The notes beneath the pieces are model-generated. The model ran no database searches and had not been told where the DNA came from. It saw only the letters and a program-made list of their open reading frames with translations. The position numbers and the translations under genes were made by a program. Positions 50,539-54,928 of a DNA stretch of 64,000 nucleotides are shown one piece after another. Each line of letters begins with the position of its first letter. Within the stretch, counting starts at the first letter, position 1. Source of the stretch: a virus. The DNA is taken from positions 2,383 to 66,382 of the IMG/VR virus record IMGVR_UViG_3300046373_000099. One strand, written 5' to 3'.

Positions 50539-50591
50539 GGCGCTCCAGCGGCTCCCTTTGGGGTGTACGCGGCGTGATTGGCCGGAGCGCC
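50539..50591 (-). ncRNA. Orphan variant guide-like hairpin unit
   Basis: stem-CCA-ATCACGCCG-cGTACACCCC-AAAGGGAGC-cG-stem. Confidence 0.45.
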
Positions 50592-50903: not shown

Positions 50904-51247
50904 GCCGCCACCCGCATCGCGTAGTCATTGACAGCACGGCCAGCCAGTTCGGCTTCGGCGTCCGGCGTGTTGTCGTTGGCGGCCAATCTCTTGACCGACA
51001 CAGGCATCATGCCGGACAGTGTCGAGCATCCGCCGTTGTGGGGCGACATGCGCGTGACGCGGTCGGGGTTGTTGTCGTTGGCGCTTTCCAGGCGAACCGG
51101 CATTGCGGTCAGGCTGCCACGGCGACGCAGGTGCTGGTAGACGGTCATGGTTTTCATTCCGACCGCCTCGGCGATCTTGCGGCAGGATGAGCCATCCGCT
51201 CTTCGAGCATGCAGGTCTGCGGACGCGGAATCTGTGATGATTGTCAT
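50900..51247 (-). CDS. HTH protein with two ANDN motifs and an ssrA-like C-terminus
   Basis: GSSCRKIAEAVGMKTMTVYQHL; ends AVNDYAMRVAA. Confidence 0.65.
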   Translation of the reverse strand: MTIITDSASADLHARRADGSSCRKIAEAVGMKTMTVYQHLRRRGSLTAMPVRLESANDNNPDRVTRMSPHNGGCSTLSGMMPVSVKRLAANDNTPDAEAELAGRAVNDYAMRVAA

Positions 51248-51325
51248 AGGGTCTCCTCTGGTGGTGTGGTGGTGAAAACGGCGGCTGGTGGCCGCAGCTA
51301 AAAATAACTTGCGCTATCCGAAATT

Positions 51326-51356
51326 ACAGTATATTATCTTTACAAAATTGTCAAGG
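51326..51356 (-). promoter_or_regulatory. Repeated sigma70 promoter/operator, copy 4 (divergent from second repressor)
   Basis: TTGACA-attttgtaaagataata-TACTGT. Confidence 0.8.
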
Positions 51357-51410
51357 CATTTTGGTGCCTCGGCCGCTTTTGCTTGCTGTGATCAACCGAA
51401 GGGACGACCC

Positions 51411-52031
51411 ATGAAAGAGAAAAAAGGCCTGCCGCGCCTCGCGCAAATGCTCATCCACCGACAGAAGCAACTGGAGGCAACTGACCGTGCCATCTGCGAA
51501 GAATATGGATGGCTGCAGCAAACGTATAACAATTGGAAAGGCGGGGCCGCTCCCCGTAGTCCGTGGTACGATTCCGTCGCAAGTTACCTCGGAGTTACGC
51601 CGCATGATGTGGAAGAGCTGGCTGAGGAAGCCAAGATTAGCAAGGGCAGCCGGAAGATTCCAAAACTGTCCGTCTATTCCGCCGCTCGCGAATACGGAGA
51701 AGTCAAAGACGCTTCGACCGGAGAGTATTTCTTTAACGCTTTCAACGTCGGACGTCGTCACATTCCCGAAGGCCGCTACGCGTTCATCGTTGATACGGCG
51801 GTAATGGAACCCTCCCTGCGGCAAGGCACTCGCGCCTTCGCAGATGGTTCCATATGGGCCAAGCCAGGTAATGAGGTCATGGTTCATGCCGATAATGGCG
51901 AAGCATGGCTCGGAGAACTCGTTTCCATGAAAGACGGCGGCGTCCAGATTCGCCAGTACAATCCGGACAGGACGTTCAGTCTGAAGGAAATCAATGCCGT
52001 GCATCCTGTCGTCCTTTCCGAGCGGATTTGA
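51411..52031 (+). CDS. Second repressor-like protein: HTH plus degenerate S24 domain
   Basis: LQQTYNNWKGGAAP HTH; YAFIVDTAVMEP lacks the catalytic Ser. Confidence 0.7.
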   Translation: MKEKKGLPRLAQMLIHRQKQLEATDRAICEEYGWLQQTYNNWKGGAAPRSPWYDSVASYLGVTPHDVEELAEEAKISKGSRKIPKLSVYSAAREYGEVKDASTGEYFFNAFNVGRRHIPEGRYAFIVDTAVMEPSLRQGTRAFADGSIWAKPGNEVMVHADNGEAWLGELVSMKDGGVQIRQYNPDRTFSLKEINAVHPVVLSERI

Positions 52032-52056
52032 CAAATCATTTTGCCCCTGCTAAATA
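52028..52056 (+). promoter_or_regulatory. Sigma70 promoter for putative sRNA
   Basis: TTGACA-17 nt-TAAATA. Confidence 0.65.
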
Positions 52057-52062
52057 CCCGCT

Positions 52063-52232
52063 GCCTGCTGTGGTGGCGGGAAGGAAATTTGGTGGGTCTC
52101 CTCGCCAAGCAGTACGAGCCTAGTTTCGACCGTTAAATGGTGGTTCTGCCTTCGGGTCGGTCGAGATGGTGGTGGGTTAATAGATTAGAGTTTGTGGAGC
52201 TTCGGCATGTAATTGCCGGAGTGTTTATTTTT
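52063..52232 (+). ncRNA. Putative multi-hairpin antisense sRNA
   Basis: Promoter; loops UGUGGUG, GGUCUCCU and UGGUGGUU; terminal hairpin CTTCGGCA..TGCCGGAG plus U-rich tail. Confidence 0.6.
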
Positions 52233-52284
52233 GCCTGCCGCCTTCCCTGTGTGCGTTTTAAACTCTTGGCAGCAGGCAAATAAG

Positions 52285-52333
52285 TGGGGCGGATTTTGAA
52301 TTTTGGTTTTCGTCGTTCAAATGGCCGCCCCCA
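52285..52333 (-). ncRNA. TIGR-like guide unit downstream of tas gene
   Basis: GGGGCGG-CCA-TTTGAACGA-cGAAAACCA-AAATTCAAA-aT-CCGCCCC. Confidence 0.75.
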
Positions 52334-52337
52334 GACA

Positions 52338-53408
52338 TCAGGCAACAGCCCGACGCCATTCAATCCAAAGGTTCCGCAGCAGACGCTTTTCAACGTACCG
52401 GTGCGCCCTCATGGAAACATGCTTTTTGTAGGATTCCTTGCCGGTTGCGGCCTCAGTCACAGGCATGTCGAGCTTGACAGCCTCTGTGCGTGCGCGGTCG
52501 GCAAAGACCTGTTGGTAATATGACAGATCTTCATTGGCCCACACGTCCTCGCCCATGACTGGACGCCACTTCCCCATTCCGCCGATGACGTGCTCGCGGG
52601 CAACGTAGGAGACGGAGCGGCGCTTCTTGTTATATCCTTCTGCAATCCAGTCTTCAGCAGGAGCGCCAGCGCCTGGGTTGCCTTGACGGTGGCCGTTGAT
52701 AACGGCGAGGCCGAGACGCTTCCATACCGCGCTAACCGATTTATACGAGCCGATATCGCCGCATTCGCCAACGATCGTTGCGAAGCTGGTGTCGCCGAAT
52801 CCCTTGACCGACTTGACCCACGAATAGATTGGAAGCTGCTTGACCAGTTTGACCAGCGACTTCTCGTAGGCGTCACGGCAAGCGGTGAGCGGGTCCATTG
52901 CGAGCAAATACGGCTGGATGCTGGCGTAGAGCGGGTGGTCAGAATCGGCGCAGACGGTGCGGTAGAGTGATTCGGTGCGCTTCCGCGCTTTAGCCTTGGC
53001 TTCGTCATCGGCGAAGTCATCGTCGGACTGCAGCGTGAGACGCAGAACGGCCTGCCCTTGCAGGGCCAGCTTCGTTTGGGCTCTGATCATTCCTTGCCGC
53101 AGGCGGTGAAGGTTGATGATCTTGTCGATGGTGTCGGTTGTTTGATCTGCGGCGACATAGGGTGCGAGGGTGATGTGGCCGGAGGCCCAAGCAGGCGGCT
53201 CGGCGGTACTGGGTTGCGCTGGGGTGATGGCCGTCTGCTTGGGATGGGTGTCCTGATGCGACGAAGCAACATTGGGCTTCTTGGCAGTTTTGGTCGCATC
53301 AGGAATGAATGTGCCAGCAGCTTGTGACGCGTGGGCTTCAACACCTTTATGGCTGCTGGCAGTTTCGAGCGCCGCGCACAAGGCTGCAGGCGAATTATCT
53401 AGGAACAT
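52338..53408 (-). CDS. Nop/IS110 C-terminal-domain protein lacking RuvC (TasA-like RNA-guided DNA-binding protein)
   Basis: Coiled coil LHRLRQGMIRAQTKL; SVKGFGDTSFATIVGECGDIGSYKSVSAVWKRLGL (IS116/IS110-type motif); no DEDD domain; AGAGGAGAC RBS. Confidence 0.8.
   Translation of the reverse strand: MFLDNSPAALCAALETASSHKGVEAHASQAAGTFIPDATKTAKKPNVASSHQDTHPKQTAITPAQPSTAEPPAWASGHITLAPYVAADQTTDTIDKIINLHRLRQGMIRAQTKLALQGQAVLRLTLQSDDDFADDEAKAKARKRTESLYRTVCADSDHPLYASIQPYLLAMDPLTACRDAYEKSLVKLVKQLPIYSWVKSVKGFGDTSFATIVGECGDIGSYKSVSAVWKRLGLAVINGHRQGNPGAGAPAEDWIAEGYNKKRRSVSYVAREHVIGGMGKWRPVMGEDVWANEDLSYYQQVFADRARTEAVKLDMPVTEAATGKESYKKHVSMRAHRYVEKRLLRNLWIEWRRAVA
53141..53361 (-). ncRNA. TIGR-like guide units embedded in the tas coding sequence (3 clear, 1 degenerate)
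   Basis: Hairpins 53186-53243, 53251-53304 and 53312-53361 (plus 53141-53183) with CCA-N9-nG(A/C)A(G/A)CCCA-N9-nG. Confidence 0.75.
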
Positions 53409-53431
53409 GGTGGTCTCCTCTGGGTTGGTGG

Positions 53432-53805
53432 TGCAGGTCTGGCGACGGCAACTTGGGTTTCGTACTACTTATGGCCAGACCTGTATGCAATTTAGTATCA
53501 ACCGGCAGGGCGCTAACCTCCTGCATCTCTTCACGCGGCTCCTCAAGAAAGGAAAAGGGCGCGCTAGTAACCTTCGGTTCATCAGGCCCAAGGTGCGACG
53601 GGAAGCCGTTCCGTCCTCGGTCGATTGCGGTGCGGCGGCGCAAACGTCATGGGTTTCTAACTAGCAGTGGCCGCCGCAATTCTTTGAATGGGTATGCAGA
53701 TCGCGGCGGTCGGCTACCGGGTTCCGCACTCTCCGCGGCCGCAATCTGCAATTTTTGGGGTGGCTAGCGCTGCCATGGTTTTCGCGTCAACACTGGCCAC
53801 CCCGA
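53432..53805 (-). ncRNA. TIGR-like stem-loop array (4 units)
   Basis: Units 53432-53485, 53631-53678, 53695-53750, 53755-53805. Confidence 0.85.
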
Positions 53806-53808
53806 CCG

Positions 53809-54363
53809 TCACACGGTCATGCCTTCGGCTTCCGCCTTAATCTTTGCCAAGTCCGCAGCCGTCAGTGCGGCGCGCATTGTCTTGGAGCCTGCCCGCTCGC
53901 CGGCACTGATAAGCCAGCGGCCCTTGCGAACCATATCGACGCCTTGTCCGAGAAAGCCGTTGCCGATCTCGACGACCTGCGTTCCGGAGAGGTCGCCAAG
54001 CTTGGTGTCGACGCCTTGCCATTTGAAAGGCATGTCGAACAACGTCTCGGTGACAATCAAACCCTGGCGCTGAGCACGGCGTTGTGCGGCGTGAACAGCG
54101 GGGGACATAGTGTGGGGAGTTTTGGTGCCGCAACTTTGTGCGGTCTCGATGCGCTTGCGCTCTTTTTGACCTACCTCATTGAGGAGGGAGCGCGCGCCGA
54201 TGCGGACGAATTCGTCGGCAATCGTGGGGAAGTTAGCAACGTAGTTGGAGATTTTCTCGACGGCGGCGTTCAAGTCGCCCTTCGCTTCGTCATACATGCG
54301 TTCAGTCACGCTTCTGGCTGTAAGGCTGGTTGCGCCGGTAACTCTTCTGGCTGCTACGTTCAT
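53809..54363 (-). CDS. Uncharacterised Tas-associated protein (184 aa)
   Basis: GAGGAGAC RBS; sandwiched between guide arrays. Confidence 0.7.
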   Translation of the reverse strand: MNVAARRVTGATSLTARSVTERMYDEAKGDLNAAVEKISNYVANFPTIADEFVRIGARSLLNEVGQKERKRIETAQSCGTKTPHTMSPAVHAAQRRAQRQGLIVTETLFDMPFKWQGVDTKLGDLSGTQVVEIGNGFLGQGVDMVRKGRWLISAGERAGSKTMRAALTAADLAKIKAEAEGMTV

Positions 54364-54388
54364 GTTGGTCTCCTCGTGGTTCTGGTGG

Positions 54389-54558
54389 GCAGAGTGGCGA
54401 CACCTCTTTGGGTTTCGCTCGCATGGTGGCCGCTCTGCTTTATGGTTCCTGCCGGTGGCTCGGGGACGTAGGTTTTCGAGGTCTTGTCGGCCGTCGGCAG
54501 GTAAGGGTTGTGGGTTGCTATTGCAGATTGGTTTTCGTGAAAATATTGGCTCCTCACA
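54389..54558 (-). ncRNA. TIGR-like stem-loop array (3 units)
   Basis: Units 54389-54438, 54448-54501, 54509-54558. Confidence 0.85.
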
Positions 54559-54700
54559 CCAAGCCGCCATCCGCTTGGTCTAAGGAACTCGCCGGCTGCA
54601 TCTCAGCAGCCAGCGTCCCGTTTATTGATCTTCTTGGTGGACCGTGGCCTTTCAGTAAGGCTCTTCTTCTGCGTCGAGACGCTTTCTTTGATTTCCGCAT
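54554..54700 (-). CDS. Arg-rich small protein (48 aa)
   Basis: GAGGAGAC RBS; MRKSKKASRRRRRALLK. Confidence 0.5.
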   Translation of the reverse strand: MRKSKKASRRRRRALLKGHGPPRRSINGTLAAEMQPASSLDQADGGLV

Positions 54701-54717
54701 GTCAGTCTCCTCGTGAG

Positions 54718-54858
54718 TTAGCCCCTCAGGGCGGTATTTTGTTTTTCGTAGAACCGGGCTGGTGGCCCGCGCTCCTTGGCATCTGGTATTCTGGTGGCCT
54801 CCTTTGCGGAAACTCTTCTTCTTATGGGGTCGTCTTGAGAGTTGTTAATCGTTTTCAT
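54718..54858 (-). CDS. Small basic protein (46 aa), first gene of the lytic transcript
   Basis: GGAGGAC RBS; MKTINNSQDDPIRRRVSAK. Confidence 0.45.
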   Translation of the reverse strand: MKTINNSQDDPIRRRVSAKEATRIPDAKERGPPARFYEKQNTALRG

Positions 54859-54928
54859 CAAATTGTCCTCCGGTTGGTGCCCCCAACGTTCGGCGCTTGG
54901 TAGTGTTTTTGTTGTTGAAATATCTCTA

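What the first reader, a model, noticed from the sequence alone, without database searches (positions are those of the whole stretch)
53141..53408. Guide RNAs encoded inside the Tas protein's own N-terminal coding sequence
Seen in sequence: the tas ORF has a strong AGAGGAGAC RBS before the ATG at 53408. Its first ~90 codons (low-complexity) contain three clear guide hairpins (53312-53361, 53251-53304, 53186-53243) and one decayed unit (53141-53183), all stop-free in frame. Their loop repeats diverge (GAAGCCCA, GCAACCCA). Inference: this DNA is dual-coding. Processing guides out of the mRNA would destroy tas mRNA, giving negative autoregulation. Alternatively, array expansion was absorbed into the ORF.
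Basis: partly seen in the sequence, partly recalled or inferred. Interest (0 to 1): 0.8.

Follow-up and report, generated by a model that had tools for sequence, protein, structure and literature searches.

The report
Guide RNAs inside phage tasA gene
Three hairpin guide-RNA units of a phage's RNA-guided DNA-binding system (TIGR-TasA) lie in frame inside the floppy front part of the gene for the protein that uses them. The arrangement is real, but a 2026 preprint already described it for this family.

Summary
The three hairpins at 53312-53361, 53251-53304 and 53186-53243 (minus strand) are real stem-loop tigRNA units: stem, CCA, 9 nt, 9-nt loop ending CCA, 9 nt, xG, stem. A covariance model built only from other phages' intergenic units finds them (E 1e-4 to 4e-3).

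The 356-aa ORF is a nuclease-less TasA. Its best fold matches are TasR and TasH.

Translation very probably starts at 53408. The phage-wide RBS precedes that ATG. In 28 of 28 relatives where a conserved N-terminal peptide was found, the peptide is in frame with the core and stop-free, across 27-140 codons. No usable start lies between the units and the core.

The units encode a disordered linker (aa 18-77). In relatives, intragenic units come and go unit by unit. Their spacers are scrambled (27% identity) while the scaffolds are kept (89%).

The "decayed unit" at 53141-53183 is not a unit. It is a conserved peptide motif.

Autoregulation by processing is untested, because no RNA data were available.

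Xu et al. (bioRxiv, Sept 2026) already report tigRNAs inside tas at the 5' end, in disordered regions. This scan also found the arrangement before on other DNA. Verdict: a new member of a known kind.

The parts
52338..53408 (-). tasA: 356-aa nuclease-less Tas protein with a Nop-type fold. The core begins at about aa 88.
   Evidence: One search gives the translation; a profile of 37 homologues hits chain 9mty_A (which titles TIGR-TasR) at E 9.2e-8. AF2 model, mean pLDDT 78.6; the ten best Foldseek PDB matches are all TasR (9mty) or TasH (9vzx, 9w02, 9w03, 9w04, 21kl); the only Pfam hit is a weak Transposase_20 match, and no nuclease domain is found.
53406..53420 (-). Ribosome-binding site GAGGAGAC, a 4-nt spacer, then the ATG start of tasA
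   Evidence: The pattern GAGGAGA-N3-8-ATG occurs 15 times in the window against 0.6 expected.
53367..53393 (-). Conserved N-terminal peptide (aa 6-14, SPAALCAAL), predicted as a helix at low confidence. It lies upstream of the embedded units.
   Evidence: alignment; helix 7-17; 25 loci, with entropy at codon positions 1/2/3 of 1.00/0.76/1.69; in frame with the core in 28 of 28 loci.
53312..53361 (-). Intragenic tigRNA unit 1: 10-bp stem, 30-nt interior, loop 9-mer TGAAGCCCA. Read as aa 16-33.
   Evidence: 21.6 bits, E 4e-3..
53251..53304 (-). Intragenic tigRNA unit 2: 12-bp stem, loop 9-mer AGAAGCCCA. Read as aa 35-53.
   Evidence: 23.5 bits, E 1.3e-3..
53186..53243 (-). Intragenic tigRNA unit 3: 13 pairs with one mismatch, loop 9-mer CGCAACCCA. 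Read as aa 56-74.
   Evidence: 27.5 bits, E 1.2e-4..
53157..53189 (-). Conserved peptide motif W-A-S-G-H-I-T-L-A-P-Y (aa 74-84).
   Evidence: 9.0 bits, E 6.8; entropy by codon position 0.30/0.21/1.24 in 10 loci; the motif is present in homologues that have no intragenic unit.
53432..53805 (-). Upstream intergenic sub-array: four units, at 53432-53485, 53631-53678, 53695-53750 and 53755-53805
   Evidence: 38.1, 39.6, 20.9 and 35.6 bits.
54389..54438 (-). Unit upstream of the 184-aa partner gene. One or two degenerate units lie 5' of it, seen by eye only.
   Evidence: 36.2 bits, E 6.9e-7.
52286..52331 (-). Unit immediately downstream of the tasA stop codon
   Evidence: 21.9 bits, E 3.2e-3.
53809..54363 (-). 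184-aa gene of unknown function between two sub-arrays. It is a conserved neighbour of tasA in this clade.
   Evidence: sequence; same RBS type; no PHROG match; tblastn finds homologues in 22 of the 80 other loci.

Best explanation
The window is a complete phage genome, probably temperate (66.4 kb with terminal repeats). Its relatives sit in Rhizobiales genomes. Next to a CI-like repressor gene it carries a stem-loop TIGR-Tas system: a nuclease-less TasA and at least 10 same-strand hairpin units. Each unit holds two 9-nt spacers framed by box C (CCA) and box D (xG).

Three units lie inside tasA itself. They sit between a conserved N-terminal peptide (aa 5-17) and a conserved W-x-S-G-H-x-x-L-A-P-Y motif just before the Nop-domain coiled coil.

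Shown by sequence and comparison:
- Translation starts at 53408.
- It reads the three units as a disordered linker (aa 18-77).
- In this protein family the linker grows and shrinks by whole units, always in frame.
- The embedded units keep their stems and boxes, while their spacers are replaced far faster than silent sites change. Intergenic units behave the same way.

Inferred:
- The units are still used as guides, cut from the tasA transcript or a sub-transcript.
- TasA with these guides binds DNA and represses transcription, as shown for other TasA proteins.
- A transcript whose embedded units are excised can no longer make TasA, because no start codon lies between the units and the core. 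Guide making and TasA making would then compete on each RNA molecule.
For: Identity of the system:
- Profile hit to chain 9mty_A at E 9.2e-8. titles this entry TIGR-TasR.
- The ten best fold matches are all TasR or TasH, followed by IS621 and Nop5/Nop56/58.
- Unit geometry is as published for stem-loop arrays (Faure 2025, PMC12045711, passages read).
- All CM hits lie on the tas strand: 10 of 10 in the window and 316 of 316 in 36 related loci, one of which (L083) duplicates L019.

Translation through the units:
- The phage-wide RBS precedes 53408.
- An N-terminal peptide motif plus SD was searched in all three frames of 34 close loci. It was found in 28. In 28 of 28 it is in frame with the core, with no stop, and the N-termini have 17 different lengths from 27 to 140 codons.
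- Third-codon-position variation dominates in that peptide and in the W..GH..LAPY motif.
- The only in-frame starts after codon 10 begin at codon 107, inside the conserved helix and after invariant R104.
- aa 18-73 and 75-77 have pLDDT below 50.

Unit-wise change:
- By CM, 14 of 33 classified loci hold 30 units between the start codon and the core.
- All 18 loci without such a unit, other than L007, have N-termini of 47 codons or fewer.
- Thirteen of the 14 loci with an N-terminus of 74 codons or more hold at least one unit. L007 is the exception.
- L030 holds one unit in only 42 codons.
- L027 and L028 differ by one 66-nt unit.

Guide-like evolution inside the CDS:
- In 9 orthologous intragenic unit pairs, spacers are 43/162 identical and scaffolds 224/252.
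- Third-codon identity in the first 300 nt of the core is 82% for L017-L024 and 68% for L027-L028.
- Intergenic units of L017-L024 show the same pattern: spacers 69/180, scaffolds 254/280.
- Against its closest relative P0002, this protein is 15/17 identical in the N-terminal peptide, 35/61 in the linker and 256/279 in the core.
Against: - There are no RNA or protein data for this phage, so neither translation nor processing is observed directly.
- The three embedded units score lower (21.6-27.5 bits) than the four best intergenic units of the window (35.6-39.6 bits). Three other intergenic units score 20.1-21.9.
- Four of the units' six box D positions read TG or AG instead of the commonest CG; the two CG are the loop box D of unit 3 and the 3' box D of unit 2.
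- The published CUU processing motif is not enriched at stem bases in this family: 17/94 at the 5' base and 20/94 at the 3' base, against 22/94 and 50/94 for a control trinucleotide.
- No target of any spacer was found in the phage genome or in the held loci.
- Stop-freeness of this one ORF is unremarkable by itself.
- The related loci are not independent, and some are near-duplicates.
- The 100% pairing in A2 comes from how I selected the units, so it is not a test.
Confidence: 0.75

Rival explanations
1. Translate-or-process feedback. TasA binds the hairpins in its own mRNA. Their excision, or the bound protein itself, shuts off TasA synthesis. TasA level would then be set by negative autoregulation and coupled to guide output.
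For: - Geometry allows it. The nearest upstream unit ends 26 nt before the ATG and the first embedded unit starts 47 nt after it.
- After excision no start codon remains for the core.
- In 15 of 25 loci a unit ends 19-38 nt upstream of the ATG.
- Xu et al. (bioRxiv 10.64898/2026.09.09.750476, sections 5 and 11) suggest a link between tigRNA maturation and Tas translation.
- Recalled, from no call: Drosha-DGCR8 cleaving hairpins in DGCR8 mRNA, and RNase III cleaving its own leader, work this way.
Against: - Nothing here measures RNA ends or protein levels.
- 19 of 33 related loci have no embedded unit by CM, so the feedback cannot be essential to the system.
- Xu et al. (section 13) note that intragenic tigRNAs could instead come from internal promoters.
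Confidence: 0.3
2. The embedded units are translated relics. They entered the ORF by array expansion and are tolerated as a disordered linker, but they are no longer processed or loaded as guides.
For: - Their CM scores are lower than those of the best intergenic units, and their box D letters are off-consensus.
- L007 has a 94-codon N-terminus with only remnants of units and no CM hit. In L017 one unit has decayed relative to L024. Decay inside the ORF therefore does happen.
Against: - The stems are intact at 10-13 pairs, and the fold is far better than shuffles.
- In relatives, embedded units keep their scaffolds at 89% identity while spacers fall to 27%. A neutral linker should sit near the silent-site identity of 68-82% throughout.
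Confidence: 0.15
3. The N-terminal 90 codons are not translated. The real start lies downstream, and the hairpins are an ordinary 5' leader array.
For: Stop-free frames through units are common by chance in this GC-rich array. The upstream gene shows such a spurious extension.
Against: - The only downstream in-frame start, codon 107, has no SD and would remove 19 residues of the conserved helix, including invariant R104.
- The SD, the ATG and the N-terminal peptide are conserved and always in frame with the core: 28 of 28.
- The peptide shows protein-level selection.
Confidence: 0.04

Closest known systems
Intragenic stem-loop tigRNAs in tas genes: the TIGRFinder survey and Bifidobacterium longum BlTasA (Xu et al., bioRxiv 10.64898/2026.09.09.750476; sections 5, 6, 11 and 13 read)
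   Same: Stem-loop units lie inside the tas coding sequence, including at the 5' end. They do not break the frame and they map to disordered protein segments. The effector is a nuclease-less TasA. The authors also suggest a coupling of guide maturation and Tas translation.
   Different: - In BlTasA the embedded segment maps to the wedge loop. Here it is the N-terminal linker, between two conserved peptide motifs.
- The CUU motif reported at stem bases is not enriched here.
- BlTasA has small-RNA data; this locus has none.
- I could not see the preprint's supplementary tables or TIGRSafari, so this very contig may already be listed there.
Stem-loop TIGR-TasA of a Peromyscus leucopus gut contig, PlTasA (Faure et al. 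2025, PMC12045711, passages read; Guan et al., bioRxiv 10.64898/2026.08.11.744272, passages read)
   Same: Variable palindromic stems replace edge repeats. There are two short spacers framed by box C and box D. The array is split into sub-arrays around a TasA gene. The N-terminal part of TasA is unresolved or flexible.
   Different: Those passages do not describe units inside the PlTasA gene. Here the loop between the spacers is a conserved 9-mer, the 'intermediate' type in Faure's wording.
IS110-family recombinases with bridge RNA
   Same: Related Nop-like RNA-binding fold (IS621 is among the fold matches; weak Transposase_20 hit). The guide is bipartite and pairs with both DNA strands.
   Different: There is no DEDD/RuvC-type domain hit. 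There are many tandem small units instead of one bridge RNA. No transposon ends were examined or seen.
CRISPR arrays
   Same: A tandem array of guide units with hypervariable spacers next to the effector gene.
   Different: There is no long direct repeat. Only 10 of 46 columns are invariant in A2. Each unit has its own stem and two 9-nt spacers. No adaptation genes are known for TIGR systems (Xu et al., section 13).

Membership tests
TIGR-Tas, stem-loop class with TasA | Effector with a Nop-type RNA-binding fold related to TasR/TasH | tested here: met
   9mty_A at E 9.2e-8; ranks 1-10 are all TasR or TasH, at E 9e-5 to 4e-3 and probability 1.00.
TIGR-Tas, stem-loop class with TasA | No HNH or RuvC nuclease domain (this defines TasA) | tested here: met
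   the only Pfam hit is a weak Transposase_20 match; residues 1-87 hold one short low-confidence helix and are otherwise disordered.
TIGR-Tas, stem-loop class with TasA | Tandem units with two 8-12-nt spacers, each flanked by box C (CCA) and box D (xG) | tested here: met
   Two 9-nt spacers per unit. The CCA and G columns are invariant in A2, though that set was selected for these motifs. R1 gives 10 hits at E<0.01 in the window.
TIGR-Tas, stem-loop class with TasA | Variable palindromic stems in place of edge repeats | tested here: met
   Stems of 7-14 pairs, each with a different sequence.
TIGR-Tas, stem-loop class with TasA | Units adjacent to tas and on its strand | tested here: met
   10 of 10 in the window and 316 of 316 in relatives lie on the tas strand.
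TIGR-Tas, stem-loop class with TasA | Units transcribed, processed to tigRNAs and bound by Tas | not testable with these tools
   No RNA data were available to test this.
TIGR-Tas, stem-loop class with TasA | Conserved CUU at the stem base, the processing boundary reported by Xu et al. | tested here: not met
   CTT occurs near 17/94 of 5' stem bases and 20/94 of 3' stem bases. A control trinucleotide occurs at 22/94 and 50/94.
Intragenic tigRNAs (Xu et al. 2026) | Unit inside the tas CDS without breaking the frame | tested here: met
   All three units are read in frame with no stop.
Intragenic tigRNAs (Xu et al. 2026) | Embedded segment corresponds to a disordered protein region | tested here: met
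   pLDDT is below 50 for aa 18-73 and 75-77. The units span aa 16-74.
IS110 transposase with bridge RNA | N-terminal DEDD (RuvC-like) catalytic domain | tested here: not met
   no DEDD_Tnp_IS110 hit at E up to 1. The N-terminus is disordered.

The most novel reading that the evidence does not exclude
Part of the TasA protein sequence is a passive read-out of its own guide repertoire. An unknown process overwrites individual 9-nt spacers inside the open reading frame much faster than silent sites drift. Spacers A and B can be replaced separately. The frame survives because spacers are three codons long and units sit only in the two codon phases that leave fewer free codons. Embedding guides in the mRNA would also create a translate-or-process switch that ties TasA dosage to guide output.
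Probability: 0.3. Interest if true: 0.6.

Novelty: new member of a known kind. Interest (0 to 1): 0.3.

Why it matters
The case itself is ordinary for the family since the September 2026 preprint. It is still a clean example: a complete phage genome, a start codon marked by a phage-wide RBS, and many relatives with 0 to 4 embedded units between the same two peptide landmarks.

This set shows something the papers I read leave open. Embedded guides evolve like free guides, with scrambled spacers and kept scaffolds. That argues they are in use, and that whatever renews TIGR spacers also acts inside a coding sequence.

The locus would be a convenient system for testing whether guide excision and Tas translation compete.

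Tried and rejected
Scans of genome contigs and metagenome contigs with P0001 gave only 2 loci and 1 locus, none closer than 58%. blastn against phage records gave one 119-nt match. Nucleotide-level comparison therefore used pairs among other relatives, not this phage.
- Expression. No RNA holder was listed for the locus. Two DNA runs were listed.
- Spacer targets in the phage's own genome. I tested both possible strand arrangements, gaps of 0-5 and up to 3 mismatches. This gave 8 hits, all at 3 mismatches, four of them within the array region itself. No self-target was found.
- Spacer targets in held sequence. All 329 regex-found units were searched against all held loci and the genome, requiring one exact spacer and at most 1 mismatch in the other. 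This gave 4 hits, against 2-14 (mean about 8) in 20 re-paired controls. Nothing was found.
- Collection-wide target scans were not run. They would have needed typed, joined patterns, and by my own rough estimate about one chance match per fixed-gap 18-nt pattern is expected in a collection that large.
- Promoter and terminator scan of 51200-55200. One promoter-like site was found upstream of the whole array, against 1.6 expected. No internal promoter was seen. This is uninformative.
- The pairing count on A2 is 100% by construction. I chose units with 8 or more pairs, so I do not use it as evidence.
- The third-position identity for L031-L032 (0.34) came from an out-of-register gapless comparison and is dropped.
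- The regular expression for the N-terminal peptide missed 6 of 34 loci (L016, L020, L021, L022, L023, L026). I placed their starts by eye. For L022 an alternative ATG 67 codons upstream of the core start would put one more unit inside the ORF.
- L083 duplicates L019 and was dropped. L014 and L025 are near-copies of L013 and were left out of the CM searches. L035, L036 and L038 were searched but not classified.
- The hit lists were classified against start and core coordinates by hand.
- Supplementary files of the papers were not opened. They may list this contig.

Full report
**What is in the sequence**

On the minus strand, ORF 52338..53408 encodes 356 aa. Its ATG follows GAGGAGAC and four bases.

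My motif and stem scans, and later a covariance model, show that all share one design:
- a stem of 7-14 pairs, unique to each unit;
- CCA, then 9 variable bases;
- a 9-base loop of the form xG...CCA;
- 9 variable bases, then xG and the closing arm.

RNA 53130-53500 folds into exactly these stems. The MFE is -119.7 kcal/mol, z -5.5, and 0 of 100 shuffles fold as well.

**What the system is**

The window is 64 kb of a 66,382-bp virus record with direct terminal repeats, rated complete.

The protein has only a weak Transposase_20 Pfam hit. A profile of 37 homologues hits chain 9mty_A at E 9.2e-8. The AlphaFold model (mean pLDDT 78.6) has TasR and TasH structures as its ten best PDB matches, 9mty (TIGR-TasR) first among them. 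IS621 and the Nop5/56/58 proteins come next.

There is no nuclease domain, so this is a TasA.

The unit design is that of stem-loop TIGR arrays (Faure et al. 2025, PMC12045711, passages read).

A CI-like repressor gene lies divergently at 54990-55685. Homologues occur in Mesorhizobium, Rhizobium, Brucella and other Rhizobiales genomes, and in Rhizobium phage RHph_X2_25. The phage is therefore probably temperate.

**An independent detector**

I aligned 77 distinct intergenic units from 24 other phage loci, none from this window (A2), and built covariance model R1 from them.

With filters off, R1 finds 10 hits at E<0.01 in the window, all on the tas strand:
- four strong intergenic units, at 35.6-39.6 bits;
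- the three embedded units, at 27.5, 23.5 and 21.6 bits;
- three weaker intergenic units, at 20.1-21.9 bits, one of them a solitary unit at 50542-50588.

In 36 related loci, all 316 hits at E<0.01 lie on the tas strand.

**Is the N-terminus translated?**

Being stop-free is weak evidence here. Of the intergenic unit-frames, 170 of 231 are open. Of same-length windows in this phage's upstream array, 186 of 1004 are open. The longest ORF of the upstream gene also runs through two units.

Better evidence comes from four observations:
1. The RBS at 53408 is the phage's standard one. GAGGAGA-N3-8-ATG occurs 15 times against 0.6 expected.
2. The alignment of 37 homologues shows a conserved N-terminal peptide, then a segment of very variable length, then a conserved W-x-S-G-H-x-x-L-A-P-Y motif and the core.
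3. I searched all three frames upstream of the core in 34 close loci for the peptide motif with an SD and a start codon. It was found in 28 loci. It was always in frame with the core, with no stop, and the N-termini have 17 different lengths from 27 to 140 codons.
4. Both conserved peptides vary mostly at third codon positions. Entropy at positions 1/2/3 is 1.00/0.76/1.69 for the first and 0.30/0.21/1.24 for the second.

In this ORF there is no in-frame ATG, GTG or TTG between codon 10 and codon 107. Codon 107 lies inside the conserved helix, after invariant R104.

I conclude that translation starts at 53408 and reads through the units. They form the disordered stretch aa 18-77.

The 'decayed unit' is the W..GH..LAPY motif. 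It also occurs in homologues that have no embedded unit, so it is a protein feature.

**Does the N-terminus change in unit-sized steps?**

Yes. I classified the CM hits by hand against the start and core coordinates of 33 loci.
- 14 loci hold 30 units between start and core.
- 18 of the 19 loci without such a unit have N-termini of 3-47 codons.
- 13 of the 14 loci with 74 codons or more hold at least one unit.
- L007 is the exception: 94 codons with only remnants.
- L030 has one unit in 42 codons.

L027 and L028 differ by a single 66-nt unit, in frame.

**Are the embedded units still guides?**

There are no RNA data, so I compared orthologous embedded units between related phages.

In 9 pairs, spacers are 43/162 identical (27%, the chance level) and scaffolds are 224/252 identical (89%). 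Third-codon identity in the first 300 nt of the core is 82% (L017-L024) and 68% (L027-L028).

Intergenic units of L017-L024 behave alike: 69/180 against 254/280. In one pair, spacer B is identical while spacer A is not.

The closest protein relative of this TasA is 88% identical in the N-terminal peptide, 57% in the linker and 92% in the core.

A neutral linker would not keep its stems and boxes while losing its spacers. This favours units that are in use and share the array's unknown spacer-renewal process.

Evidence against:
- The three units here score in the lower half of this window's units.
- Four of their six box D positions are off-consensus.
- The CUU motif of Xu et al. is not enriched.
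- No target was found.

**Mechanism**

Shown: dual use of the DNA at the level of sequence constraint.

Inferred: TasA with these guides binds DNA and represses transcription, as Xu et al. showed for other TasA proteins (section 12 heading and section 13 read).

Also inferred: excision of an embedded unit separates the start codon from the core, so one transcript yields either protein or these guides. Whether this gives feedback is untested.

**Comparison with what is known**

Xu et al. (bioRxiv 10.64898/2026.09.09.750476; sections 5, 6, 11 and 13 read) state the following:
- Stem-loop arrays can lie within tas at the 5' end, the 3' end or internally, without disrupting the frame, typically in disordered regions.
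- BlTasA yields an intragenic tigRNA in small-RNA-seq.
- The arrangement may link maturation and translation.

Their text contains no occurrence of 'rhizob' or 'autoregul'. I could not open the supplements.

Earlier agents of this scan reached the same verdict on other phage DNA. One noted guides changing faster than scaffolds in a different clade.

This finding is therefore a new member of a known kind.

Noticed in passing
window 50542-50588 (-): A solitary tigRNA-like unit (R1 20.1 bits, E 0.009) lies about 1.7 kb downstream of tasA. It sits between a stop codon at about 50602 and the next gene's start at about 50469. A GC-rich hairpin follows it.
   Followed up: partly
window 53809-54363 (-): The 184-aa gene between two sub-arrays has no PHROG match but is a conserved neighbour of tasA. 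tblastn finds homologues in 22 of the 80 other loci. They lie upstream of tas in most loci and downstream in L031. No unit lies inside it at E<0.01.
   Followed up: partly
window 54563-54700 (-): A small ORF is the first gene of the leftward operon. It carries the phage-type RBS and encodes an arginine-rich 46-aa peptide. It has no homologue in the held loci. Its position and composition recall lambda N-type antiterminators, which is my recollection and was not tested.
   Followed up: no
whole window: GAGGAGA-N3-8-ATG occurs 15 times against 0.6 expected. Fourteen of the 15 are on the minus strand, and two of those overlap at one ATG. It marks many early-gene starts and serves as a phage-wide strong RBS signature.
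   Followed up: partly
30 embedded units in 14 loci (OWN, L005, L008, L009, L015, L017, L021, L024, L027, L028, L030, L031, L032, L082): Embedded units use only two of the three codon phases. The script gives 17, 12 and 1. The single odd case is a 47-nt match whose box C sits one base later by eye, which makes the count 18, 12 and 0. The unused phase would read each spacer as three free codons instead of two. Shared ancestry of units may also explain the bias.
   Followed up: partly
L017:4154-4199 vs L024:4155-4200: In orthologous units of two close phages, spacer B is 9/9 identical while spacer A is 4/9. The two spacers of a unit can therefore be renewed separately.
   Followed up: partly
window 53809-54570 (-): The longest ORF of the partner gene begins 69 codons upstream of its RBS-marked ATG and runs stop-free through two units. 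This shows that open frames across units arise by chance in this GC-rich array.
   Followed up: yes
window 51288-52031 (+): A plus-strand ORF lies between the tasA downstream units and the next leftward genes. A near-consensus -35/-10 pair is seen by eye on the minus strand at about 51320-51352. It may be a second regulatory node. It was not analysed.
   Followed up: no
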